Below are positions 12,818 through 18,934 of a DNA stretch of 64,000 bases, one piece after another. Made by a program: the position numbers and the translations under genes. The DNA comes from Candidatus Poribacteria bacterium (lineage in GTDB: Bacteria > Poribacteria > WGA-4E > UBA9662): assembly GCA_036339735.1 (NCBI GenBank), contig JAYZAL010000019.1, forward strand, positions 42,859 through 106,858. The letters are read 5' to 3'. Numbering within the stretch: position 1 is the first letter of the stretch; every line of letters starts with the position of its first letter. A model generated the notes under the pieces. It worked only from the letters and a program-made list of their open reading frames with translations. It searched no databases and was not told where the DNA came from.

Positions 12818-13819
12818 TTACAAATCCGATATTAGAATTTCACGTCCTTCTTTAGCACTCAGAACAGCAGCAAAAACCATAGACATAGACTTTAGATTAT
12901 CTGCAGCATTACATTCAGGTTCTCGGTCCTCTTTAATCGCGCGAACAAATTCGTTAAGAACGGGATTTGGACCATCAATATCATCTAGATCGACTTGTTT
13001 GCGTATTGTTGGGTTTTGTCGATGATTAAGTGTCTGATAAAGATCAAATCCTTCCCAAGTCAAAGTACCTTTTGGTCCTTCATATCGCCATTCACCGTTA
13101 TGTCCAGCAGGAACATGTCCCATTGTACACCCAATACCTCGATGGGTTGCAAATACACCATTTTCGAATTTAAAAAGAATTATCTGACAAGCATCGCCCT
13201 GATGCCAACCCCAAGGCAAATTCCAAGTGATGGCTTGGGCACTAATTGGATCAACTCCTAATGTATATCTCATCATATCAAAATGATGAATTCCCATATC
13301 TGTCAGGAACATGTATGGTTCTGTCACATAATGGCTTCCTGGGCTATCAGCCCAATTTACATATAGTGAGACATCTAATTGTGCGATTTCACCAATTTTA
13401 TGATCTTCTATTAATCTTCGGGTTGTACGAGGTAGAGCGTTGAACCGGTAGTTTTGAGTAATCATGTGTTTGACATTAGCACTTTCGCCTGCAGATACAA
13501 TACGTTTAGCTGCATCAAAATCATCACTCAAAGGTTTTTCACCAAGTAAGTGCAAACCTAGATCAAAAGATTTCATTGCAATAGCTTCATGTACAGATGG
13601 CGGAGTAACATCAACAACGAAATCAGCCCCAAAACTCTGGGGTACATCGTTCAGATCTGCGAAAATTTTATTTTCTGGTATTCCCCTTTGATCAATAGCT
13701 CTTTGACGATTTTTCTCCGATGCTTCCACGTAGGCAACAAGTTCCACTTCCTTATGATCTTCACAAGCCGATAACCAGTGGTAGCCTCGACCGCCAAGTC
13801 CGACAAGGATTGCTTTCAT
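12818..13819 (-). CDS. Gfo/Idh/MocA oxidoreductase
   Basis: GLGGRG, EKPL, QNYRF, DMGIHHFD. Confidence 0.92.
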   Translation of the reverse strand: MKAILVGLGGRGYHWLSACEDHKEVELVAYVEASEKNRQRAIDQRGIPENKIFADLNDVPQSFGADFVVDVTPPSVHEAIAMKSFDLGLHLLGEKPLSDDFDAAKRIVSAGESANVKHMITQNYRFNALPRTTRRLIEDHKIGEIAQLDVSLYVNWADSPGSHYVTEPYMFLTDMGIHHFDMMRYTLGVDPISAQAITWNLPWGWHQGDACQIILFKFENGVFATHRGIGCTMGHVPAGHNGEWRYEGPKGTLTWEGFDLYQTLNHRQNPTIRKQVDLDDIDGPNPVLNEFVRAIKEDREPECNAADNLKSMSMVFAAVLSAKEGREILISDL

Positions 13820-14005: not shown

Positions 14006-16300
14006 TTGATTAGTGTAAAAAATAAAAGATTATTTATCATATTTCTACTGTCATCAGTGATTGCCCTTGAAACCTATTCTAGTGAAATAAGGGGGAGAGT
14101 TCTTCGCCAAGGTTCACAAGAACTGGTTAGTGGAGTAATTGTGAAAGTTTTGGGAACGGATCAAAAATTTATAACCGATGATCAGGGAGAATTTGAAATA
14201 ACTGAACTACCAACTGGAACTTATCAATTAACCTTGACAAGATTCCGTTTTCGTTCAAAAACAATTGAAGTCTTGGTACTTGACGATCAACCCCTCGATT
14301 TAGACGTTCGGCTAGAAAGAATCGATTTCATCTTCGACGAAATAGTTGTGAGGGGGCAGCTTTTAACCGAATCGGTCAGTCGTCAAAGTGTGACTGGATT
14401 AGAAATAAAGCGTATACCGGGTGCTGGTGGAGATGCGTTGAGAGCTATCCAAGCTTTACCAGGTATCAAGGCTGGTGCAGATTTCGGAGGTCAACTTTAT
14501 GTCCGTGGTGGTGGACCAGAAGATAATCAGATCTATTTTGATCGTTATCCCTTGGCTAATGCTTATCATTTCGGAGGTTTAGTTTCAACTGTAAGTTCTG
14601 AAATTCTACAACGGATTGATATCTATGCTGGTGGATTTGGAGCTGAATATGGTCAGGATTCGCAGGCAATAATAGATATTTATTCGCGACCTGGTAATCG
14701 TAAGAACTTCAGTGGCAAAGTGAATTTAAATATTCTTTATGCTGAAGGACTGATAGAAGGTCCACTAGGGGAATCAGGGTCTTGGTATTTTGCAGGTCGT
14801 CGTAGTTATTTTGACCTTTTTCCGTTAGAAAGAGTAATAACGGTTATAACAGCATTCCCTAGATTCTGGGATTATCAAACACGATTTAACTACGAAATAA
14901 ACGAGAAATACCAAATAGATTTTACAGCATTTGCAGCTGATGATTTTGCAGAATTGGCTTTTACAGAAGAACAGCAAGATGAAGAAGAACTAAGAGGTGC
15001 CTTATACATAAAGAATTCGGCACATGTTCAAGGCTTCCACCTCCGTGCTTTGCTTACCCCACGCCTAACCTACGATTTTAATCTTTCTCACAACAAACAA
15101 TTAGTAAATTTCAAGATTGGTCAAGGATTCTTCCTTCGTATACAACCTGACGTGTATGATGTTAGACATGATGTAGTATATGAAATTTCGCCCAATGTAC
15201 GTTTAGAAACAGGTTTGTTAAATTCAATTGGTGACGTTGTCGTTCAGCTGTTTTTTCCTAATCCTCCGGAAGAGGGAGATCCGAATTACGATTTTTTAGA
15301 AGCCGAAAAGAATAGAGTTGATACACAACAGGAAGATTATCAAGTGGAAGGCTACGTTCAAACACGTTTTACTCTTGGGGAATACCTATCCTTTGCATTA
15401 GGAACTCGAGTCGATTATTCTGCAGATTTAACAGCTCAGCCAACGCCTCAACCACGTTTAAGTTTTAATTTAACAATGCCAGGATTACCACAATTAAGAT
15501 TAGCTTACGGCCGTTATATGCAAACACCGCAGCCACCTCAGTTTTTTGAACCTGGGGGGAATCCAGAACTTGAGGAAAGTCTCTCAGACCATTTTATCCT
15601 AGAAATCGAAAGAGCTTTTGAAAATGGTACAGTGCTCAAGGCTGCTGGTTATCGTAAGCAGTTGGATAAACAGATTGAACCTGATCCTGAGGAAAATCCA
15701 GTAAAAAATAAGAATTACCTCAATATTGGAGAAGGTTACGCACAAGGTGTCGAATTCTTACTCCAATATCGTCAAGGAGATCGATTTTTCGGTTGGTTGA
15801 GTTATGCAAGGTCTGTTTCCAAAAGAAGGGACGATCCAGATCAAGATTACCGATTTTATTCCTATGACCAAACACATATTGCAACTATCATCGCCAGCTA
15901 CAAATTTACCAAGACATTTGAGATTGGAGGAAGATGGCAGTATGCCACGGGAAACCCCTACACACCATTAACCTGTGAAGAAAATATTAGCAATCCATGT
16001 TACGAAAATATTATCAGTCCGAGAGATGGAAAAACTAGAAAAGTACCTCTCTATGGATCAATAAATTCTTTCCGTGTAGAACCATTTCATCGTCTCGATG
16101 TGAGAATCAGCAAAAATTTTGTTTTTGATACTTGGCAAATTGGAACCTACCTAGAATTAATAAATGCCTATAATCGAAAAAATGTCCTTCAGTTTAGCTA
16201 TGACGACGAGTATGAACGCGACAAGGATGGAGAAGTGAAGAAAGACATAGTAGGACAGTTACCATTGCTACCTTATTTCGGAGTAATCATTGAGTTTTAA
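14006..16300 (+). CDS. TonB-dependent receptor with N-terminal carboxypeptidase-regulatory-like domain
   Basis: Signal peptide; TDxxGxFxIxxLPxGxY; plug LPGI..LYVRGG..YHFGG..GGFGAEYG; RLDVR..YLELINAYN; C-terminal Phe. Confidence 0.9.
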   Translation: MISVKNKRLFIIFLLSSVIALETYSSEIRGRVLRQGSQELVSGVIVKVLGTDQKFITDDQGEFEITELPTGTYQLTLTRFRFRSKTIEVLVLDDQPLDLDVRLERIDFIFDEIVVRGQLLTESVSRQSVTGLEIKRIPGAGGDALRAIQALPGIKAGADFGGQLYVRGGGPEDNQIYFDRYPLANAYHFGGLVSTVSSEILQRIDIYAGGFGAEYGQDSQAIIDIYSRPGNRKNFSGKVNLNILYAEGLIEGPLGESGSWYFAGRRSYFDLFPLERVITVITAFPRFWDYQTRFNYEINEKYQIDFTAFAADDFAELAFTEEQQDEEELRGALYIKNSAHVQGFHLRALLTPRLTYDFNLSHNKQLVNFKIGQGFFLRIQPDVYDVRHDVVYEISPNVRLETGLLNSIGDVVVQLFFPNPPEEGDPNYDFLEAEKNRVDTQQEDYQVEGYVQTRFTLGEYLSFALGTRVDYSADLTAQPTPQPRLSFNLTMPGLPQLRLAYGRYMQTPQPPQFFEPGGNPELEESLSDHFILEIERAFENGTVLKAAGYRKQLDKQIEPDPEENPVKNKNYLNIGEGYAQGVEFLLQYRQGDRFFGWLSYARSVSKRRDDPDQDYRFYSYDQTHIATIIASYKFTKTFEIGGRWQYATGNPYTPLTCEENISNPCYENIISPRDGKTRKVPLYGSINSFRVEPFHRLDVRISKNFVFDTWQIGTYLELINAYNRKNVLQFSYDDEYERDKDGEVKKDIVGQLPLLPYFGVIIEF

Positions 16301-16704
16301 TGGCTAAATTAACGTCGAGCAGACTAGTTTCCCGAATAACCTTTCTTTTTCTTTCATTTCAAATTTTTTGTTTGCTCTCCTGTTCTGTGTTTGGTGGAAA
16401 TTCATGTGGGGGGTTAGAAGATTTGGGTCAGTCTGCCCCAAATGATTGCTGCCCTTATCATACATCCAATTCCACAGAAAAGTGTTGTTGGAAAACTGTA
16501 GTTATTACAGATCAAAAAAAGCCTCTTAAAATCTCTACGTCTGGTAACCAAAAAGGGTCTACATTTTTAGCATCTAGTCAAAGTGTGTTGGAGAGACAAA
16601 AGCTTGAGGGTCAAATTTGTTTTGTTTTTGTTTTGATTCCTCATATTTCTTCAAAAGAATCACTATCCTTACCAAATCGATCGCCTCCTATCTCCATAAT
16701 TTGA
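16300..16704 (+). CDS. Cys-rich leader protein with C-terminal RSPP (DUF2946/CruR-like putative arrest peptide)
   Basis: TAATG coupling to the receptor; hydrophobic N-terminus; CLLSC, SC, CCPYH, KCC; ends NRSPPISII. Confidence 0.7.
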   Translation: MAKLTSSRLVSRITFLFLSFQIFCLLSCSVFGGNSCGGLEDLGQSAPNDCCPYHTSNSTEKCCWKTVVITDQKKPLKISTSGNQKGSTFLASSQSVLERQKLEGQICFVFVLIPHISSKESLSLPNRSPPISII

Positions 16705-16763
16705 GTTTTGTTGATGAGTAAAATGAAAATTATGAAAAAACGACCTAAGCTATTATGGAGATA
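16689..16763 (+). promoter_or_regulatory. Anti-SD/SD stem (translational attenuator)
   Basis: TATCTCCATAAT (16689-16700) is the exact reverse complement of ATTATGGAGATA (16752-16763), which contains the GGAG SD of ATG 16768. Confidence 0.72.
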
Positions 16764-16767
16764 ATAA

Positions 16768-17823
16768 ATGAAAGATAGAAAAAAGTGGATCTTGTTGGCA
16801 ATATTGTTTTTTATTTTAAATTCGATACCATATGTCATTGCTCAAGATGCTTGAGGTGCCTGAAGTAACCCCATAATCCCTGAAATGGGGCCGAGCCGTG
16901 AGCTCGATATAGAAACGAAGAAAAAATTTCGATTCACTTTTAACGTCACACGTTCTTTCAATGCAGAAGGTGGACATAGTGAAACAGGCGGATTGACAAC
17001 CGATGGTCGACTAATCGAAATTGGAAACCATTGGCATCACGTGTCTATGTCAATGAGCCGTTTTAATTTAGGACTGCATTACCAATTAAATCCTCGAACT
17101 AAGCTAGCACTAGTCTTACCATATAGTATTAAAAATCAGTCAGCTGAAATTGAATGGGAAGCCTCAAACCCAAGTGTGAGTGACCAGGATGCAGCTATCC
17201 GGAATGGTTATATCCATCATAGAGATGAAACATATCGTGGGTTTGAAGATCTGAATTTAACGACTAACTACCACTGGAATGGGTTTACATCTATAAAAAA
17301 CGACAGAATTACTCTGTCTGCTGGGTTGTCTATACCAACGGGTAAAATTGAACCTGATCCATATAAGCTCGGCGACGTAGGAAAAAAACATTTACATCTG
17401 CAGTTTGGTACAGGAACACTAACTCCAAGTTTCCAAGTTATCTACATATTGCCAGTAAACGATTTGCTGTCGGTACAATCTCGGTTATCATTTCGACGTC
17501 CCTTCTACGAAAACAAGTATAGTTTTCTGTCTCCTCCAGAAACAAGTACCTATTTTGGTATAGCATTAAAAGTCTCGAATATCCTGAGATTACATGGGTC
17601 TTGGATGGTATTTAGGCAAGGATTTGGGTATTGGGATGGAAATAGAGATCGAAATACTGGTATGCAAATGCATGCTTTACAATTGGGAACAAACACAACA
17701 ATTGGTCGAAAAACCCCTTTAAATATTAGCGTAATTGTACCTATCCATCAACAAATGCTTAGTACGGGGGATACATTCGAGCATGGTATTCTATTGTCGT
17801 CTAGTGTTTCTCATGTCTTTTAA
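16768..17823 (+). CDS. Putative selenoprotein (UxxU) outer-membrane beta-barrel channel, COG4313/MetA-pathway-like, His-rich
   Basis: GGAG+ATG 16768; MKDRKKWILLAILFFILNSIPYVIAQDA-TGA(16852)-G-A-TGA(16861)-SNPIIPE in frame with the 16885 ORF; GLSIPTG..LQFGTG; terminal Phe. Confidence 0.75.
16869..16906 (+). promoter_or_regulatory. Candidate bacterial SECIS hairpin(s)
   Basis: CCCCAT-10nt-ATGGGG (16869-16890) and CGAGC-CGTGA-GCTCG (16892-16906) directly 3' of the two UGAs. Confidence 0.5.
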
Positions 17824-17834
17824 AACTAACTAAA

Positions 17835-17864
17835 TTGACAGTCAGAGGTCTGAATTGTTAGAAT
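17835..17864 (+). promoter_or_regulatory. Sigma70-type promoter
   Basis: TTGACA-18nt-TAGAAT with extended -10 TG. Confidence 0.65.
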
Positions 17865-17926: not shown

Positions 17927-18934
17927 ATGGCAGATGTTATTCGTGGTGGAGTGATAGGATATGGTGGTGCTTTTAATATGGGGCGTAGCCATGCTGGGAG
18001 TATGCAAAACACTGAAGGTATAGAATGCGTGGCAATTTGCGACATTGACCCAGAACGTACTAAAGCCGCTAAAGAAGATTTTCCACAAGTTCGTACTTAC
18101 AACGACAGTGATGATTTTTTTGCTGACGAAAGCATTGATTTAGTAACTATTGTTCTGCCTCACAATTTACATGCTCCTGTGGCTATTCAAGCACTTAATG
18201 CTGGTAAGCATGCAATAACTGAAAAACCGATGTGCATTACAGTATCAGAAGCGACTTCGATGATTGAGTCAGCAAAATCTAATGGAAAAATGTTATCGGT
18301 TTATCACAATCGGCGTTGGGATCAAGATTTTTGGACATTAAAGGGTATAATAGAGAGTGGTGTTATTGGTAGACCGCACACGATTGAAATGCGTGCTAGT
18401 GGTTATGGTCGGCCGAACCCAGATTGGTGGAGAAGTGTAAAGTCTGTTTCGGGTGGTATCATATATGACTGGGGGGCACACTATATCGACTGGCTACTAA
18501 ACGTAGTTGATAATAAAATGATCAGTGTAACCGGATTTTATATTGATAATGAAGTCTGGACAGATATTAGTAATGAAGATCATGCACGTGCGTTCATTCG
18601 ATTTGACGGAGACTTAGTAGCTGACGTGGAATTTTCCCAGATCGCTAAAATTGGAGGAGATCGATGGAAGATCTTAGGTACCCATGGGGCAATTCAATCC
18701 GCAGATGGCCATTTCAAAGTGTGGTCAGAAATCGAAAATCAGCAAAGTGAACAAGAAATCTCATATCAAGGTCGCCCAGGCCATAGTTTCTATCAAAATA
18801 TTGTAGCTCACCTCAGAGAGAATGAACCATTAATAGTTACACCAGAGTCTGCTCGACGGGTAATTGCTGTAATGGATTTGGCTGAGAGGTCAGCGAAGTC
18901 GCATCAAGCTGAAACCGTACCTTACGAATTTTAA
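17927..18934 (+). CDS. Gfo/Idh/MocA oxidoreductase
   Basis: GYGGAFNMG, EKPM, HNRRWD, YDWGAHYID. Confidence 0.92.
   Translation: MADVIRGGVIGYGGAFNMGRSHAGSMQNTEGIECVAICDIDPERTKAAKEDFPQVRTYNDSDDFFADESIDLVTIVLPHNLHAPVAIQALNAGKHAITEKPMCITVSEATSMIESAKSNGKMLSVYHNRRWDQDFWTLKGIIESGVIGRPHTIEMRASGYGRPNPDWWRSVKSVSGGIIYDWGAHYIDWLLNVVDNKMISVTGFYIDNEVWTDISNEDHARAFIRFDGDLVADVEFSQIAKIGGDRWKILGTHGAIQSADGHFKVWSEIENQQSEQEISYQGRPGHSFYQNIVAHLRENEPLIVTPESARRVIAVMDLAERSAKSHQAETVPYEF

What the first reader, a model, noticed from the sequence alone, without database searches (positions are those of the whole stretch)
14006..17823. Candidate new system: TonB receptor + Cys-rich RSPP arrest peptide + UxxU selenoprotein outer-membrane channel
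Seen: three co-oriented genes. The receptor is TAATG-coupled to a Cys-rich leader ending RSPP. An anti-SD stem links the leader to the next gene, a signal-peptide-bearing, His-rich barrel with TGA-x-x-TGA at its mature N-terminus. Known: DUF2946/CruR/CutF-type leaders with Cys motifs and a terminal RAPP-like motif control downstream metal-handling genes by ribosome stalling. Inference: a metal- or redox-sensing uptake operon in which ribosome arrest gates synthesis of a di-selenocysteine channel, stacking two recoding layers in about 200 nt. I do not know of this combination being described.
Basis: partly seen in the sequence, partly recalled or inferred. Interest (0 to 1): 0.92.

Follow-up and report, generated by a model that had tools for sequence, protein, structure and literature searches.

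The report
Arrest-peptide-led diselenocysteine outer-membrane channel operon
A marine Poribacteria operon encodes an outer-membrane barrel that starts with two selenocysteines and sits behind a cysteine-rich stalling leader of the kind that senses copper, a pairing apparently not described before.

Summary
Window 14006-17823 carries three co-oriented genes. The first is a TonB-receptor-like protein. It overlaps (TAATG) a 134-aa exported Cys-rich ORF ending RSPPISII. The third is a signal-peptide barrel with in-frame TGA at codons 29 and 32.

The barrel is a real selenoprotein family, with no Pfam or NCBIfam model. In 81 Poribacteria genes the motif is UGAU (61) or CxAU (20). Homologues elsewhere have CxxC at the same place. 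Two covarying hairpins follow the TGAs. selA, selB and selD are present; tRNA-Sec was not found in this 92%-complete assembly but is in 20 of 20 relatives.

The fold is a 12-strand FapF/COG4313-like channel with invariant histidines. Some homologues are fused to HMA or thioredoxin domains.

The leader belongs to a new CutF/CruR-like family that the DUF2946 model does not recognise. It has CC..CC, about 63 residues, then R[SAGP]PP and usually 4 residues. It precedes the barrel in 24 of 81 loci, often ahead of Cus-like copper efflux genes. A paralogue in the same genome heads a multicopper-oxidase operon.

A 12-bp helix masks the barrel's Shine-Dalgarno exactly where a stalled ribosome would sit. 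That helix is clear only in this window and weaker in a few relatives. Everything is comparative; nothing has been tested at the bench.

The parts
14006..16300 (+). TonB-dependent-receptor-like outer-membrane protein, 764 aa. It has an N-terminal CarboxypepD_reg domain and a Plug domain, and its last residue is Phe.
   Evidence: The barrel part matches no Pfam TBDT model, and PDB sequence search finds no relatives.
16300..16704 (+). Cys-rich exported leader, 134 aa: CLLSC, C, CC, CC, then 63 residues, then RSPP, then ISII and stop. Its start overlaps the receptor's stop (TAATG).
   Evidence: A family of 24 co-oriented ORFs lies upstream of barrel genes.
16678..16689 (+). RSPP codons (CGA TCG CCT CCT). 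This is the predicted arrest site, with Pro 16684-16686 in the P site and Pro 16687-16689 in the A site.
   Evidence: The sequence itself. R and PP are invariant in alignment A3. The arrest geometry is taken from PMC12992588 passages.
16689..16700 (+). 5' arm of the anti-Shine-Dalgarno helix (UAUCUCCAUAAU), inside the last leader codons.
16752..16763 (+). 3' arm of the helix (AUUAUGGAGAUA), containing the GGAG Shine-Dalgarno (16757-16760) of the barrel gene.
   Evidence: P(unpaired) of the SD is 0.01 in the free mRNA and 0.49 with a stalled-ribosome footprint.
16768..17823 (+). Outer-membrane 12-strand beta-barrel selenoprotein, 351 aa. It has a signal peptide, a mature N-terminus QDA-U-GA-U-SNPIIP, invariant His residues, and a C-terminal Phe.
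16768..16842 (+). Signal peptide (residues 1-25, ending V-I-A).
   Evidence: Sequence and alignment A1. The cleavage site is inferred by inspection.
16852..16854 (+). First in-frame TGA (codon 29). It is Sec in 61 of 81 related genes and Cys in 20.
16861..16863 (+). Second in-frame TGA (codon 32). It is Sec in 81 of 81 related Poribacteria genes and Cys in homologues elsewhere.
16869..16890 (+). Hairpin 1 (CCCCAU / AUGGGG), the first SECIS candidate. It starts 5 nt after TGA2 and 14 nt after TGA1.
16892..16906 (+). Hairpin 2 (CGAGC / GCUCG), at the position of the second conserved hairpin of the family.

Best explanation
This is a three-gene envelope operon of a pelagic Candidatus Poribacteria bacterium that handles a metal, most likely copper.

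The last gene encodes a 12-strand outer-membrane channel. Its periplasmic mature N-terminus carries a Sec-Gly-Ala-Sec motif in place of the CxxC of its homologues. Both UGAs are read as selenocysteine, with the help of hairpins just downstream. I infer that this motif captures a thiophilic metal and passes it to, or takes it from, a lumen lined with invariant histidines.

The middle gene is not a structural partner but a sensor-leader that works like CutF, CruR or SecM. It is exported co-translationally. When the ribosome reaches Arg-Ser-Pro-Pro, the second Cys-Cys pair lies about 63 residues back, which I infer is roughly where the chain leaves the translocon. Whether those cysteines are metal-bound or oxidised would then set how long the ribosome stays arrested.

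An arrested ribosome covers 16689-16700. That frees the Shine-Dalgarno at 16757-16760 and lets the selenoprotein be translated.

Shown by computation: gene anatomy, Sec/Cys conservation, hairpin covariation, the fold, leader family features, the helix, and the copper-gene neighbourhoods.

Inferred: that arrest occurs, the identity of the metal, whether the metal prolongs or relieves arrest, and the direction of transport.
For: **Selenoprotein**
- 40 of 48 matched places in 41 related genomes have two in-frame TGAs, and 5 have one.
- The motif is UGAU in 61 and CxAU in 20 of 81 genes.
- 15 of 17 fetched full-length or N-terminal homologues have CxxC-x-NP at the same site.
- The two hairpins are 92% paired, against at most 51% when the partner is slid. 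Covarying pairs are 27-55 (UA 41 / CG 22), 31-45 (GC 44 / AU 21) and 66-72 (CG 54 / UA 23).
- selD, selB and selA score over their cut-offs.
- tRNA-Sec scores over its cut-off in 20 of 20 relatives.
- TGA ends 404 of 1838 long ORFs, so the code is standard.

**Fold**
- pLDDT is 80. The top Foldseek hits are FapF 5o67 and the COG4313 channel 4rl8.
- The C-terminal residue is F or L.

**Leader**
- 24 co-oriented upstream ORFs have invariant CC, CC, R and PP.
- The spacing is 63 residues in 16 of 24. The tail is 4 residues in 18 of 24.
- RAPP, RGPP and RSPP occur 1, 0 and 2 times in 3145 own ORFs, against about 8 expected each. Both RSPP are C-terminal in Cys-rich ORFs.

**Copper link**
- Nine loci run leader, barrel, YHS protein, two OEP genes and a CusB-like protein with HMBD.
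- The paralogous leader in the same genome heads a DUF3347 lipoprotein, an OEP and a Tat multicopper oxidase.
- One barrel homologue is fused to an HMA domain and four to thioredoxin domains.

**Helix**
-.

**RNA**
- RNA-library contigs from two studies bridge leader to barrel with both TGAs unchanged.

**Published mechanism**
- CutF and CruR: abstract and passages.
- RxPP arrest, including partial activity of RSPP: passages.
Against: - Nothing was measured: no arrest, no Sec insertion, no metal binding.
- The anti-SD duplex is significant only in the window. It is marginal in L038, L045, L088 and L113, and no better than controls in the other 19 of 24 loci. Their spacers run from 43 to 425 nt. 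In the paralogue it is also not significant.
- 57 of the 62 UGAU barrel genes (61 in relatives plus the window's own) have no leader, so the channel does not depend on this control.
- RSPP arrests only partially in the systems tested.
- The DUF2946 HMM does not match the leader.
- tRNA-Sec was not found in this assembly: best score 45.2 against a cut-off of 47, and that hit is a tRNA-Ser.
- Hairpin 1 starts only 5 nt after the second UGA, and hairpin 2 lies about 32 nt after it. How the second Sec is inserted is unexplained.
- Fifteen loci put the barrel beside a peptide/nickel-type ABC importer rather than copper genes.
- RNA-library contigs can contain DNA.
Confidence: 0.6

Rival explanations
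1. The leader regulates as CruR does, not as CutF does. Arrest at RxPP keeps the ribosome on the mRNA and blocks Rho-dependent or intrinsic termination in the spacer. Metal binding releases the arrest and switches the downstream genes off.
For: - Most loci have long spacers of 179-425 nt with no anti-SD pairing, as in cruR-bfrG with its 162 nt.
- In nine RGPP loci a conserved hairpin starts at the last leader codons. A second G+C hairpin followed by a U-rich run lies about 30 nt before the barrel start.
Against: - In this window the spacer is 63 nt and holds a perfect 12-bp SD-masking helix. No terminator-like site is found on the + strand.
- Rho dependence cannot be read from sequence.
Confidence: 0.2
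2. The Cys-rich ORF is an ordinary exported metal-binding or redox protein that works with the barrel or receptor. Its RxPP is a structural or sorting feature without a regulatory arrest.
For: - It is 124-172 aa with conserved Cys pairs and is translationally coupled to the receptor.
- Anti-SD pairing is absent in most loci.
- RSPP is only a partial arrest motif.
Against: - Apart from the hydrophobic N-terminus, only the Cys, R and PP positions are invariant, at 14-35% identity to the window's leader.
- The CC-to-R spacing and the 4-residue tail are fixed.
- R[AGS]PP is depleted about 4- to 8-fold or more in the genome, and its two RSPP both sit at these C-termini.
- The paralogue has the cutF-cutO arrangement.
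Confidence: 0.15
3. The TGAs are true stops, or are read as Trp or Gly. The real product would then be the 312-aa ORF from 16885, or the gene is a pseudogene.
For: - Database gene calls start after the TGAs. Most of the top 150 representatives begin at profile position 35 or later.
- The window's own entry is 312 aa.
- Two database entries read W at these codons.
- tRNA-Sec is not in the assembly.
Against: - The signal peptide and the AQ[DE]S-U/C-x-A-U-SNP block upstream of Met39 are conserved in frame in 81 of 81 genes.
- Cys replaces Sec in relatives.
- The product from 16885 would lack any signal peptide.
- TGA ends 22% of long ORFs, and the leader itself.
- selA, selB and selD are present, and selD itself carries an in-frame TGA.
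Confidence: 0.04

Closest known systems
CutF of Rhodobacter capsulatus (cutFOG; DUF2946)
   Same: - Small Sec-exported protein with a Cys motif and a C-terminal proline stalling motif.
- A stem-loop masks the Shine-Dalgarno of the next gene, and a stalled ribosome melts it.
- It heads copper-detoxification genes (abstract and passages).
- The paralogue here heads a multicopper oxidase operon.
   Different: - No PF11162 match.
- The Cys signature is CC..CC, with a variable CxxxC in the signal region, rather than a single mature CxxxC.
- The stall motif is RxPP rather than a PPP-type motif.
- The regulated gene here is an outer-membrane selenoprotein.
CruR of Bordetella pertussis (bp2923-bfrG)
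   Same: - Exported, with a Cys motif at a fixed distance from a C-terminal RAPP 3 residues before the end.
- Linked to a TonB-dependent transporter and to copper (passages).
- Arrests with Pro-Pro in the P and A sites (passages).
   Different: - Spacing is 45 residues in CruR against about 63 here.
- CruR lies upstream of the transporter and acts through Rho. Here the receptor is upstream of the leader and a 12-bp SD helix is present.
- No HMM membership.
RAPP/RGPP small upstream ORFs surveyed in PMC12992588; SecM, ApdA, ApdP
   Same: - C-terminal R[AGSP]PP in small exported proteins upstream of co-oriented genes.
- 'TonB-related' and 'Cu-related' downstream classes are reported across phyla (passages).
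   Different: That survey is general. I saw no mention of Poribacteria, of this CC..CC family, or of a selenoprotein target in the passages read. Its supplements were not available.
COG4313 channel (4rl8) and FapF (5o67), 12-strand outer-membrane barrels
   Same: Best structural matches, with E 1e-12 to 3e-13 and TM-score 0.69-0.76 on the target. They share the N-terminal extension ahead of the barrel.
   Different: - 11-13% identity.
- No Pfam match at E <= 0.1, PF13557 included, and no PDB sequence match.
- The UxxU/CxxC-x-NP motif and the invariant HxH, HHR and HxHxQxG blocks are specific to this family.
Known UxxU and outer-membrane selenoproteins: NF041115 UxxU metal-binding protein, FCYXU-type TonB receptor NF049945, GSU2204/MtrB-PioB barrel NF041027
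   Same: Sec used as a likely metal ligand, Sec in outer-membrane proteins, and two Sec three residues apart (review table passages).
   Different: None of these NCBIfam models matches the barrel. It is a different fold family with Sec at the mature N-terminus.

Membership tests
Bacterial selenoprotein (SelB/SECIS-dependent) | In-frame UGA conserved among orthologues | tested here: met
   81 of 81 genes keep the second UGA and 61 of 81 keep the first. 40 of 48 places have 2 TGA.
Bacterial selenoprotein (SelB/SECIS-dependent) | Cys-containing homologues aligned at the Sec position | tested here: met
   20 of 81 have CxAU. 15 of 17 fetched homologues have CxxC.
Bacterial selenoprotein (SelB/SECIS-dependent) | Stem-loop just downstream of the UGA at SelB-compatible spacing | tested here: inconclusive
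   Two covarying hairpins are present. Hairpin 1 is 14 nt from UGA1 but only 5 nt from UGA2, and hairpin 2 is about 32 nt from UGA2. In CPAU genes hairpin 1 is shifted downstream.
Bacterial selenoprotein (SelB/SECIS-dependent) | selA, selB, selC and selD in the genome | tested here: inconclusive
   selD, selB and selA score over their cut-offs. selC was not found in this 92%-complete assembly but is present in 20 of 20 relatives, including both genomes of the same genus.
DUF2946 / CruR / CutF (PF11162) | Match to the PF11162 profile | tested here: not met
   No match for the window's leader at E <= 10. None in the whole genome. 2 of 24 family members reach a best E of 0.11.
DUF2946 / CruR / CutF (PF11162) | N-terminal export signal or Nin-Cout anchor | tested here: met
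   Basic residues followed by a hydrophobic stretch of about 18 residues in all 24. Judged by inspection only; no signal-peptide predictor was run.
DUF2946 / CruR / CutF (PF11162) | Conserved Cys metal-binding motif (CXXC or CxxxC) | tested here: inconclusive
   The invariant Cys form CC and CC dipeptides. A CxxxC lies in the signal region of most members but not all. The motif type differs.
DUF2946 / CruR / CutF (PF11162) | C-terminal RAPP-like or proline stalling motif a few residues before the stop, at a fixed distance from the Cys motif | tested here: met
   R and PP are invariant. The tail is 4 aa in 18 of 24. The spacing is 63 in 16 of 24, range 55-64. The value differs from CruR's 45.
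DUF2946 / CruR / CutF (PF11162) | Heads co-oriented copper-homeostasis or TonB-transporter genes | tested here: met
   Cus-like genes in 9 loci and YtkA-like genes in 5. The paralogue heads a multicopper-oxidase operon.
DUF2946 / CruR / CutF (PF11162) | Ribosome arrest that controls the downstream gene | not testable with these tools
   Only the RNA geometry could be modelled.
12-strand outer-membrane channel (COG4313 / FapF-like) | Signal peptide, 12 antiparallel strands, C-terminal aromatic beta-signal | tested here: met
   AF2 model at pLDDT 80 with about 14 DSSP strand segments, and Foldseek top hits 5o67 and 4rl8. The last residue is F or L. The strand number is taken from the matched folds, not counted on coordinates.
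12-strand outer-membrane channel (COG4313 / FapF-like) | Sequence membership (Pfam Phenol_MetA_deg or FapF models) | tested here: not met
   No Pfam or NCBIfam family at E <= 0.1. No PDB sequence hit.
TonB-dependent receptor | Plug domain plus a 22-strand barrel | tested here: inconclusive
   The Plug domain matches at E 5e-9, and TIGR01783 matches weakly, below its cut-off. No barrel-domain model matched, and the structure was not predicted.

The most novel reading that the evidence does not exclude
Poribacteria make an outer-membrane metal channel whose periplasmic 'hook' is a diselenolate (Sec-Gly-Ala-Sec). In some lineages its synthesis is gated by a periplasm-sensing arrest peptide of a family unrelated in sequence to DUF2946. 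One short stretch of mRNA would then combine copper (or another thiophilic metal) status, read by nascent-chain arrest, with selenium supply, read by two UGA recodings. It would be the first arrest-peptide-controlled selenoprotein, and the founding member of a widespread uncharacterised CxxC/UxxU barrel family for metal transfer across the outer membrane.
Probability: 0.35. Interest if true: 0.82.

Novelty: new variant of a known kind. Interest (0 to 1): 0.68.

Why it matters
- It adds a selenoprotein family that current gene callers truncate: database entries start after the TGAs. It would be a rare outer-membrane protein with two Sec.
- Through its Cys homologues it points to an uncharacterised, multi-phylum family of histidine-lined 12-strand barrels tied to HMA, thioredoxin and Cus genes. 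That would be a candidate missing route for copper or other soft metals across the outer membrane.
- It shows that the CutF/CruR logic (exported Cys sensor plus RxPP arrest) has a second, sequence-unrelated family outside Proteobacteria. Its different but equally fixed sensor-to-arrest distance bears on how nascent-chain sensing works.
- It gives a compact natural construct of about 250 nt for testing arrest-controlled initiation followed by double Sec insertion.

Tried and rejected
- **Alternative genetic code.** Rejected: TGA ends 404 of 1838 long ORFs.
- **Known families for barrel and leader.** None found in Pfam or NCBIfam, in Rfam for the region, or in PDB by sequence.
- **tRNA-Sec in the own genome.** ARAGORN found none among 34 tRNAs. 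The best RF01852 hits are tRNA-Ser and tRNA-Leu.
- **Anti-SD pairing as a family rule.** Not supported in 19 of 24 loci, nor in the paralogue.
- **Names for homologues.** Only 'hypothetical protein', plus one 'thiol-disulfide isomerase/thioredoxin' for a fusion.
- **Genomic context of the Cys-form homologues in other phyla.** Not obtained. The 12-sequence alignment was too diverse for the scan, and two scans of metagenome contigs with a narrower alignment got no answer from the machine.
- **The search of earlier findings.** Closed.
- **Protein atlas.** It did not accept the read-through protein, and I sent nothing else there.
- **Literature.** No paper listed in the searches describes this barrel, a Poribacteria selenoprotein of this kind, or an arrest peptide upstream of a selenoprotein. 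In the listing no paper held both 'arrest peptide' and 'selenocysteine'. Supplements of the CruR, CutF and RAPP papers, which list family members, could not be seen.
- **RNA contigs.** Parts of the stretch without RNA-contig cover (for example 16338-16478) say nothing.

Full report
**1. What is in the window**

Three co-oriented genes fill 14006-17823.

- Gene 1 (14006-16300, 764 aa) has CarboxypepD_reg and Plug domains and ends in Phe. It looks like a TonB-dependent receptor, although no barrel-domain model matched.
- Its TAA overlaps the ATG of gene 2 (16300-16704, 134 aa). Gene 2 has basic residues, a hydrophobic segment, eight cysteines, and the C-terminus ...LPNRSPPISII.
- Sixty-three bases further on, after a GGAG, gene 3 starts at 16768. 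It reads MKDRKKWILLAILFFILNSIPYVIA-QDA-TGA-GA-TGA-SNPIIP..., in frame with the 312-aa ORF that table 11 begins at 16885.
- A strong promoter-like site at 17835-17864 precedes the next gene, so gene 3 probably ends the unit.

**2. Organism**

Related loci come from MAGs titled Candidatus Poribacteria. The nearest is 77% identical. The assembly has 4.32 Mb in 107 contigs, 40.6% G+C, and is 92% complete.

**3. Gene 3 is a selenoprotein**

- *Conservation of the TGAs.* A read-through search found homologues in 32 of 41 related genomes. Of 48 matched places, 40 hold two in-frame TGAs, 5 hold one, and 3 short partial matches hold none.
- *The motif.* In 20 loci the block AQ[DE]S-U-G-A-U-SNP follows a signal peptide. 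Two loci have C-x-A-U instead. In 80 further loci from the species-representative collection (81 genes) the motif is UGAU in 61, CPAU in 16, CGAU in 2, CSAU in 1 and CAAU in 1. The second Sec never varies.
- *Wider family.* A profile search of 1.8 billion representatives gave 478 relatives at E <= 0.001. Most of the best 150 begin after the TGAs, that is, they are truncated gene calls. Of 17 I fetched that cover the N-terminus, 15 have CxxC-[SRGTQ]-NP at the same place. Two read W, or C and W, there.
- *Genetic code.* TGA is a normal stop in this genome, ending 404 of 1838 ORFs of 300 codons or more. It also ends gene 2.
- *Sec machinery.* selD (itself with an in-frame TGA), selB and selA are present above their cut-offs. 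tRNA-Sec was not found here. It is present above cut-off in all 20 relatives searched, including both genomes of the same genus. An assembly gap is therefore the likelier reason.

**4. RNA after the TGAs**

Every one of 81 distinct sequences folds into a hairpin that starts 5 nt after the second TGA. Nearly all have a second 7-bp hairpin further on.

For 13 pairs counted on the alignment, 92% of cells pair, against 22-51% when the partner is slid. Compensatory changes occur at 27-55 (UA 41, CG 22), 31-45 (GC 44, AU 21), 63-75 and 66-72 (CG 54, UA 23). The sequences are related, so these counts overstate independence.

The encoded residues change along with the stem (Ile..Met-Gly, Thr..Gly-Gly, Ala..Gly-Gly, Val..Thr-Gly). 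This argues that the RNA, not the peptide, is under constraint there.

In CPAU genes, which have one UGA, hairpin 1 is rebuilt further downstream. That fits a SECIS tuned to the UGA it serves.

How the second UGA of UGAU genes is decoded remains unexplained. Hairpin 1 lies 5 nt away from it and hairpin 2 about 32 nt away.

**5. Fold and chemistry of the barrel**

With the 19-sequence alignment, AlphaFold2 gave pLDDT 80 and pTM 0.77, an all-beta barrel. Residues 21-50, which include the Sec motif, have low confidence.

Foldseek's best PDB matches are FapF (5o67) and the COG4313 channel (4rl8), both 12-strand outer-membrane barrels, followed by FadL/TodX.

Invariant residues include H70, H88, H90, H150-H151-R152 and H208-L-H210-x-Q-F-G. 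Most recur in the Cys-form alignment.

One homologue carries a C-terminal HMA domain. Four carry a His/Asp-rich linker and a thioredoxin domain.

There is no Pfam, NCBIfam or PDB sequence relative. Sources call members 'hypothetical protein'.

**6. Gene 2 is a CutF/CruR-like leader of a new family**

- *Occurrence.* Scanning own plus 80 loci for Cys-rich ORFs ending R-x-P-P plus 10 or fewer residues gave 27 ORFs. Of these, 24 lie directly upstream of and co-oriented with the barrel gene. The other three (L056, L073, L100 minus strand) were dropped as downstream or antisense.
- *Sequence features.* The 24 align with only the hydrophobic N-terminus, one Cys, two CC dipeptides, R and PP conserved, at 14-35% identity to the window's.
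- *Stall motifs.* RGPP in 15, RAPP in 5, RSPP in 2, RPPP in 2.
- *Spacing.* The last CC lies 63 residues before R in 16 of 24 (range 55-64). Four residues follow PP in 18 of 24.
- *Which barrels have leaders.* All 16 CPAU genes have a leader, but only 5 of the 62 UGAU genes (own included) do.
- *Motif rarity.* In the own genome RAPP, RGPP and RSPP occur 1, 0 and 2 times in 3145 ORFs of 120 aa or more, against about 8 expected each. Both RSPP are near the C-terminus of Cys-rich ORFs: this leader and a paralogue on contig C38.
- *The paralogue.* It matches the family profile at hhalign probability 86% (E 5e-6) over the N-terminal 71 columns. It heads a DUF3347 lipoprotein, an OEP and a twin-arginine multicopper oxidase, which is the cutF-cutO arrangement.
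- *Neighbours in relatives.* The leader and barrel are followed by a YHS protein, two OEP genes and a CusB-like protein with heavy-metal-binding domains in 9 loci. In 5 loci a YtkA-like protein follows.
- *Family membership.* PF11162 (DUF2946) does not match the window's leader or anything else in the genome. It reaches only E 0.11 in 2 of 24 members.

**7. The switch**

The MFE fold pairs 16689-16700 with 16752-16763 as 12 perfect pairs that bury GGAG. The duplex (-17.0 kcal/mol) beats 49 of 49 windows taken from the leader ORF and 199 of 200 shuffles.

A ribosome arrested with Pro codons 16684-16686 and 16687-16689 in the P and A sites (the geometry shown for CruR) would cover the 5' arm. 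I forced a footprint of -12 to +15 to be single-stranded. This raises the probability that the SD is unpaired from 0.01 to 0.49. In the nearest relative, L038, it rises from 0.00 to 0.20.

Elsewhere the pairing is marginal (L038, L045, L088, L113) or absent, and spacers reach 425 nt. Nine RGPP loci instead share a hairpin starting at the last leader codons, plus a second hairpin with a U-rich tail before the barrel start. The read-out may therefore differ between lineages, as it does between CutF and CruR.

**8. Expression**

Contigs from four marine metatranscriptome libraries (four studies) match the stretch at 99% or more in 21 of 22 pieces. One contig spans 16545-16861 and another 16680-16985. 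Together they bridge the leader end, the spacer, the barrel start and both TGAs, with no differences at the TGAs. Contigs cannot prove a single transcript, and RNA libraries can hold DNA.

**9. Comparison with what is known**

- CutF: Cu-induced stalling at a C-terminal proline motif melts a stem-loop over the cutO SD (abstract; passages).
- CruR: CXXC and RAPP 45 residues apart, with arrest relieved by Cu and followed by Rho termination (passages).
- RxPP with x = G, A, S or P arrests. RSPP does so only partially. RAPP/RGPP small ORFs lie upstream of TonB- and Cu-related genes in many phyla (passages).
- A 2026 review lists 119 prokaryotic selenoprotein families. They include UxxU metal-binding proteins, an FCYXU TonB receptor and an MtrB/PioB barrel. 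In the passages I searched by keyword, no family like this one appears.

The principle of each layer is therefore known. What appears new is the barrel family as a selenoprotein, the leader family, and the placing of one behind the other.

**10. Limits**

- All evidence is comparative or predicted.
- The metal is inferred from neighbours and fusions. Fifteen leaderless loci put the barrel next to a peptide/nickel-type ABC importer, so the substrate and direction are open.
- The receptor is linked only in own, L038 and L039.
- Contexts of Cys-form homologues outside Poribacteria could not be fetched.
- That DUF3347 is associated with HMA domains is recalled, not tested.

Noticed in passing
G000 contig C38 (L122:1879-5943, minus strand): A second CC..CC..RSPP leader (140 aa, RSPP plus 5 residues) heads a DUF3347 lipoprotein, an OEP and a Tat-signal multicopper oxidase. 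This is a cutF-cutO-like copper operon in the same genome. Its leader-to-SD pairing was not better than controls.
   Followed up: partly
L001 (G000:C70:27515-28441): selD of this genome itself carries one in-frame TGA, so it is probably a selenoprotein.
   Followed up: no
whole genome G000: tRNA-Sec was not found although selA, selB and selD are present. All 20 relatives searched have it at 68-79 bits. This is probably an assembly gap (34 tRNAs found, 107 contigs).
   Followed up: partly
L045:6028 and L045:8599: One genome has two barrel paralogues about 2.5 kb apart. The first is CAAU, behind an RAPP leader. The second is UGAU, without one.
   Followed up: no
L048, L054, L060, L073, L075, L079, L087, L089, L091, L092, L099, L111, L114, L116, L117: In 15 loci the leaderless UGAU barrel lies between an aldo/keto reductase and a family-5 solute-binding protein. 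An ABC permease-like gene follows, then a 145-aa membrane protein and often an aquaporin-like gene. Only the reductase and the binding protein were checked with Pfam.
   Followed up: partly
L081, L082, L090, L093, L095, L096, L100, L104, L109 (leader stop to barrel start): The 179-202 nt spacer is conserved. One hairpin starts at the last leader codons. A G+C-rich hairpin plus a U-rich run lies about 30 nt before the barrel start, which may be an attenuator.
   Followed up: partly
P0044, P0045 (database proteins): Two database entries read the Sec codons as W (..CSLWSNP, ..WGAWSNP). This suggests a gene caller applied a TGA=Trp code to these contigs.
   Followed up: no
window 17835-17864: A near-consensus sigma-70-like promoter (TTGACA, 18 nt spacer, TAGAAT, with TG) sits just after the barrel gene and before the Gfo/Idh/MocA gene at 17927.
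   Followed up: no
window 12818-13819 (-) and 17927-18934 (+): The three-gene cassette sits between two Gfo/Idh/MocA oxidoreductase genes. The same flanks occur in L038 and L039.
   Followed up: no
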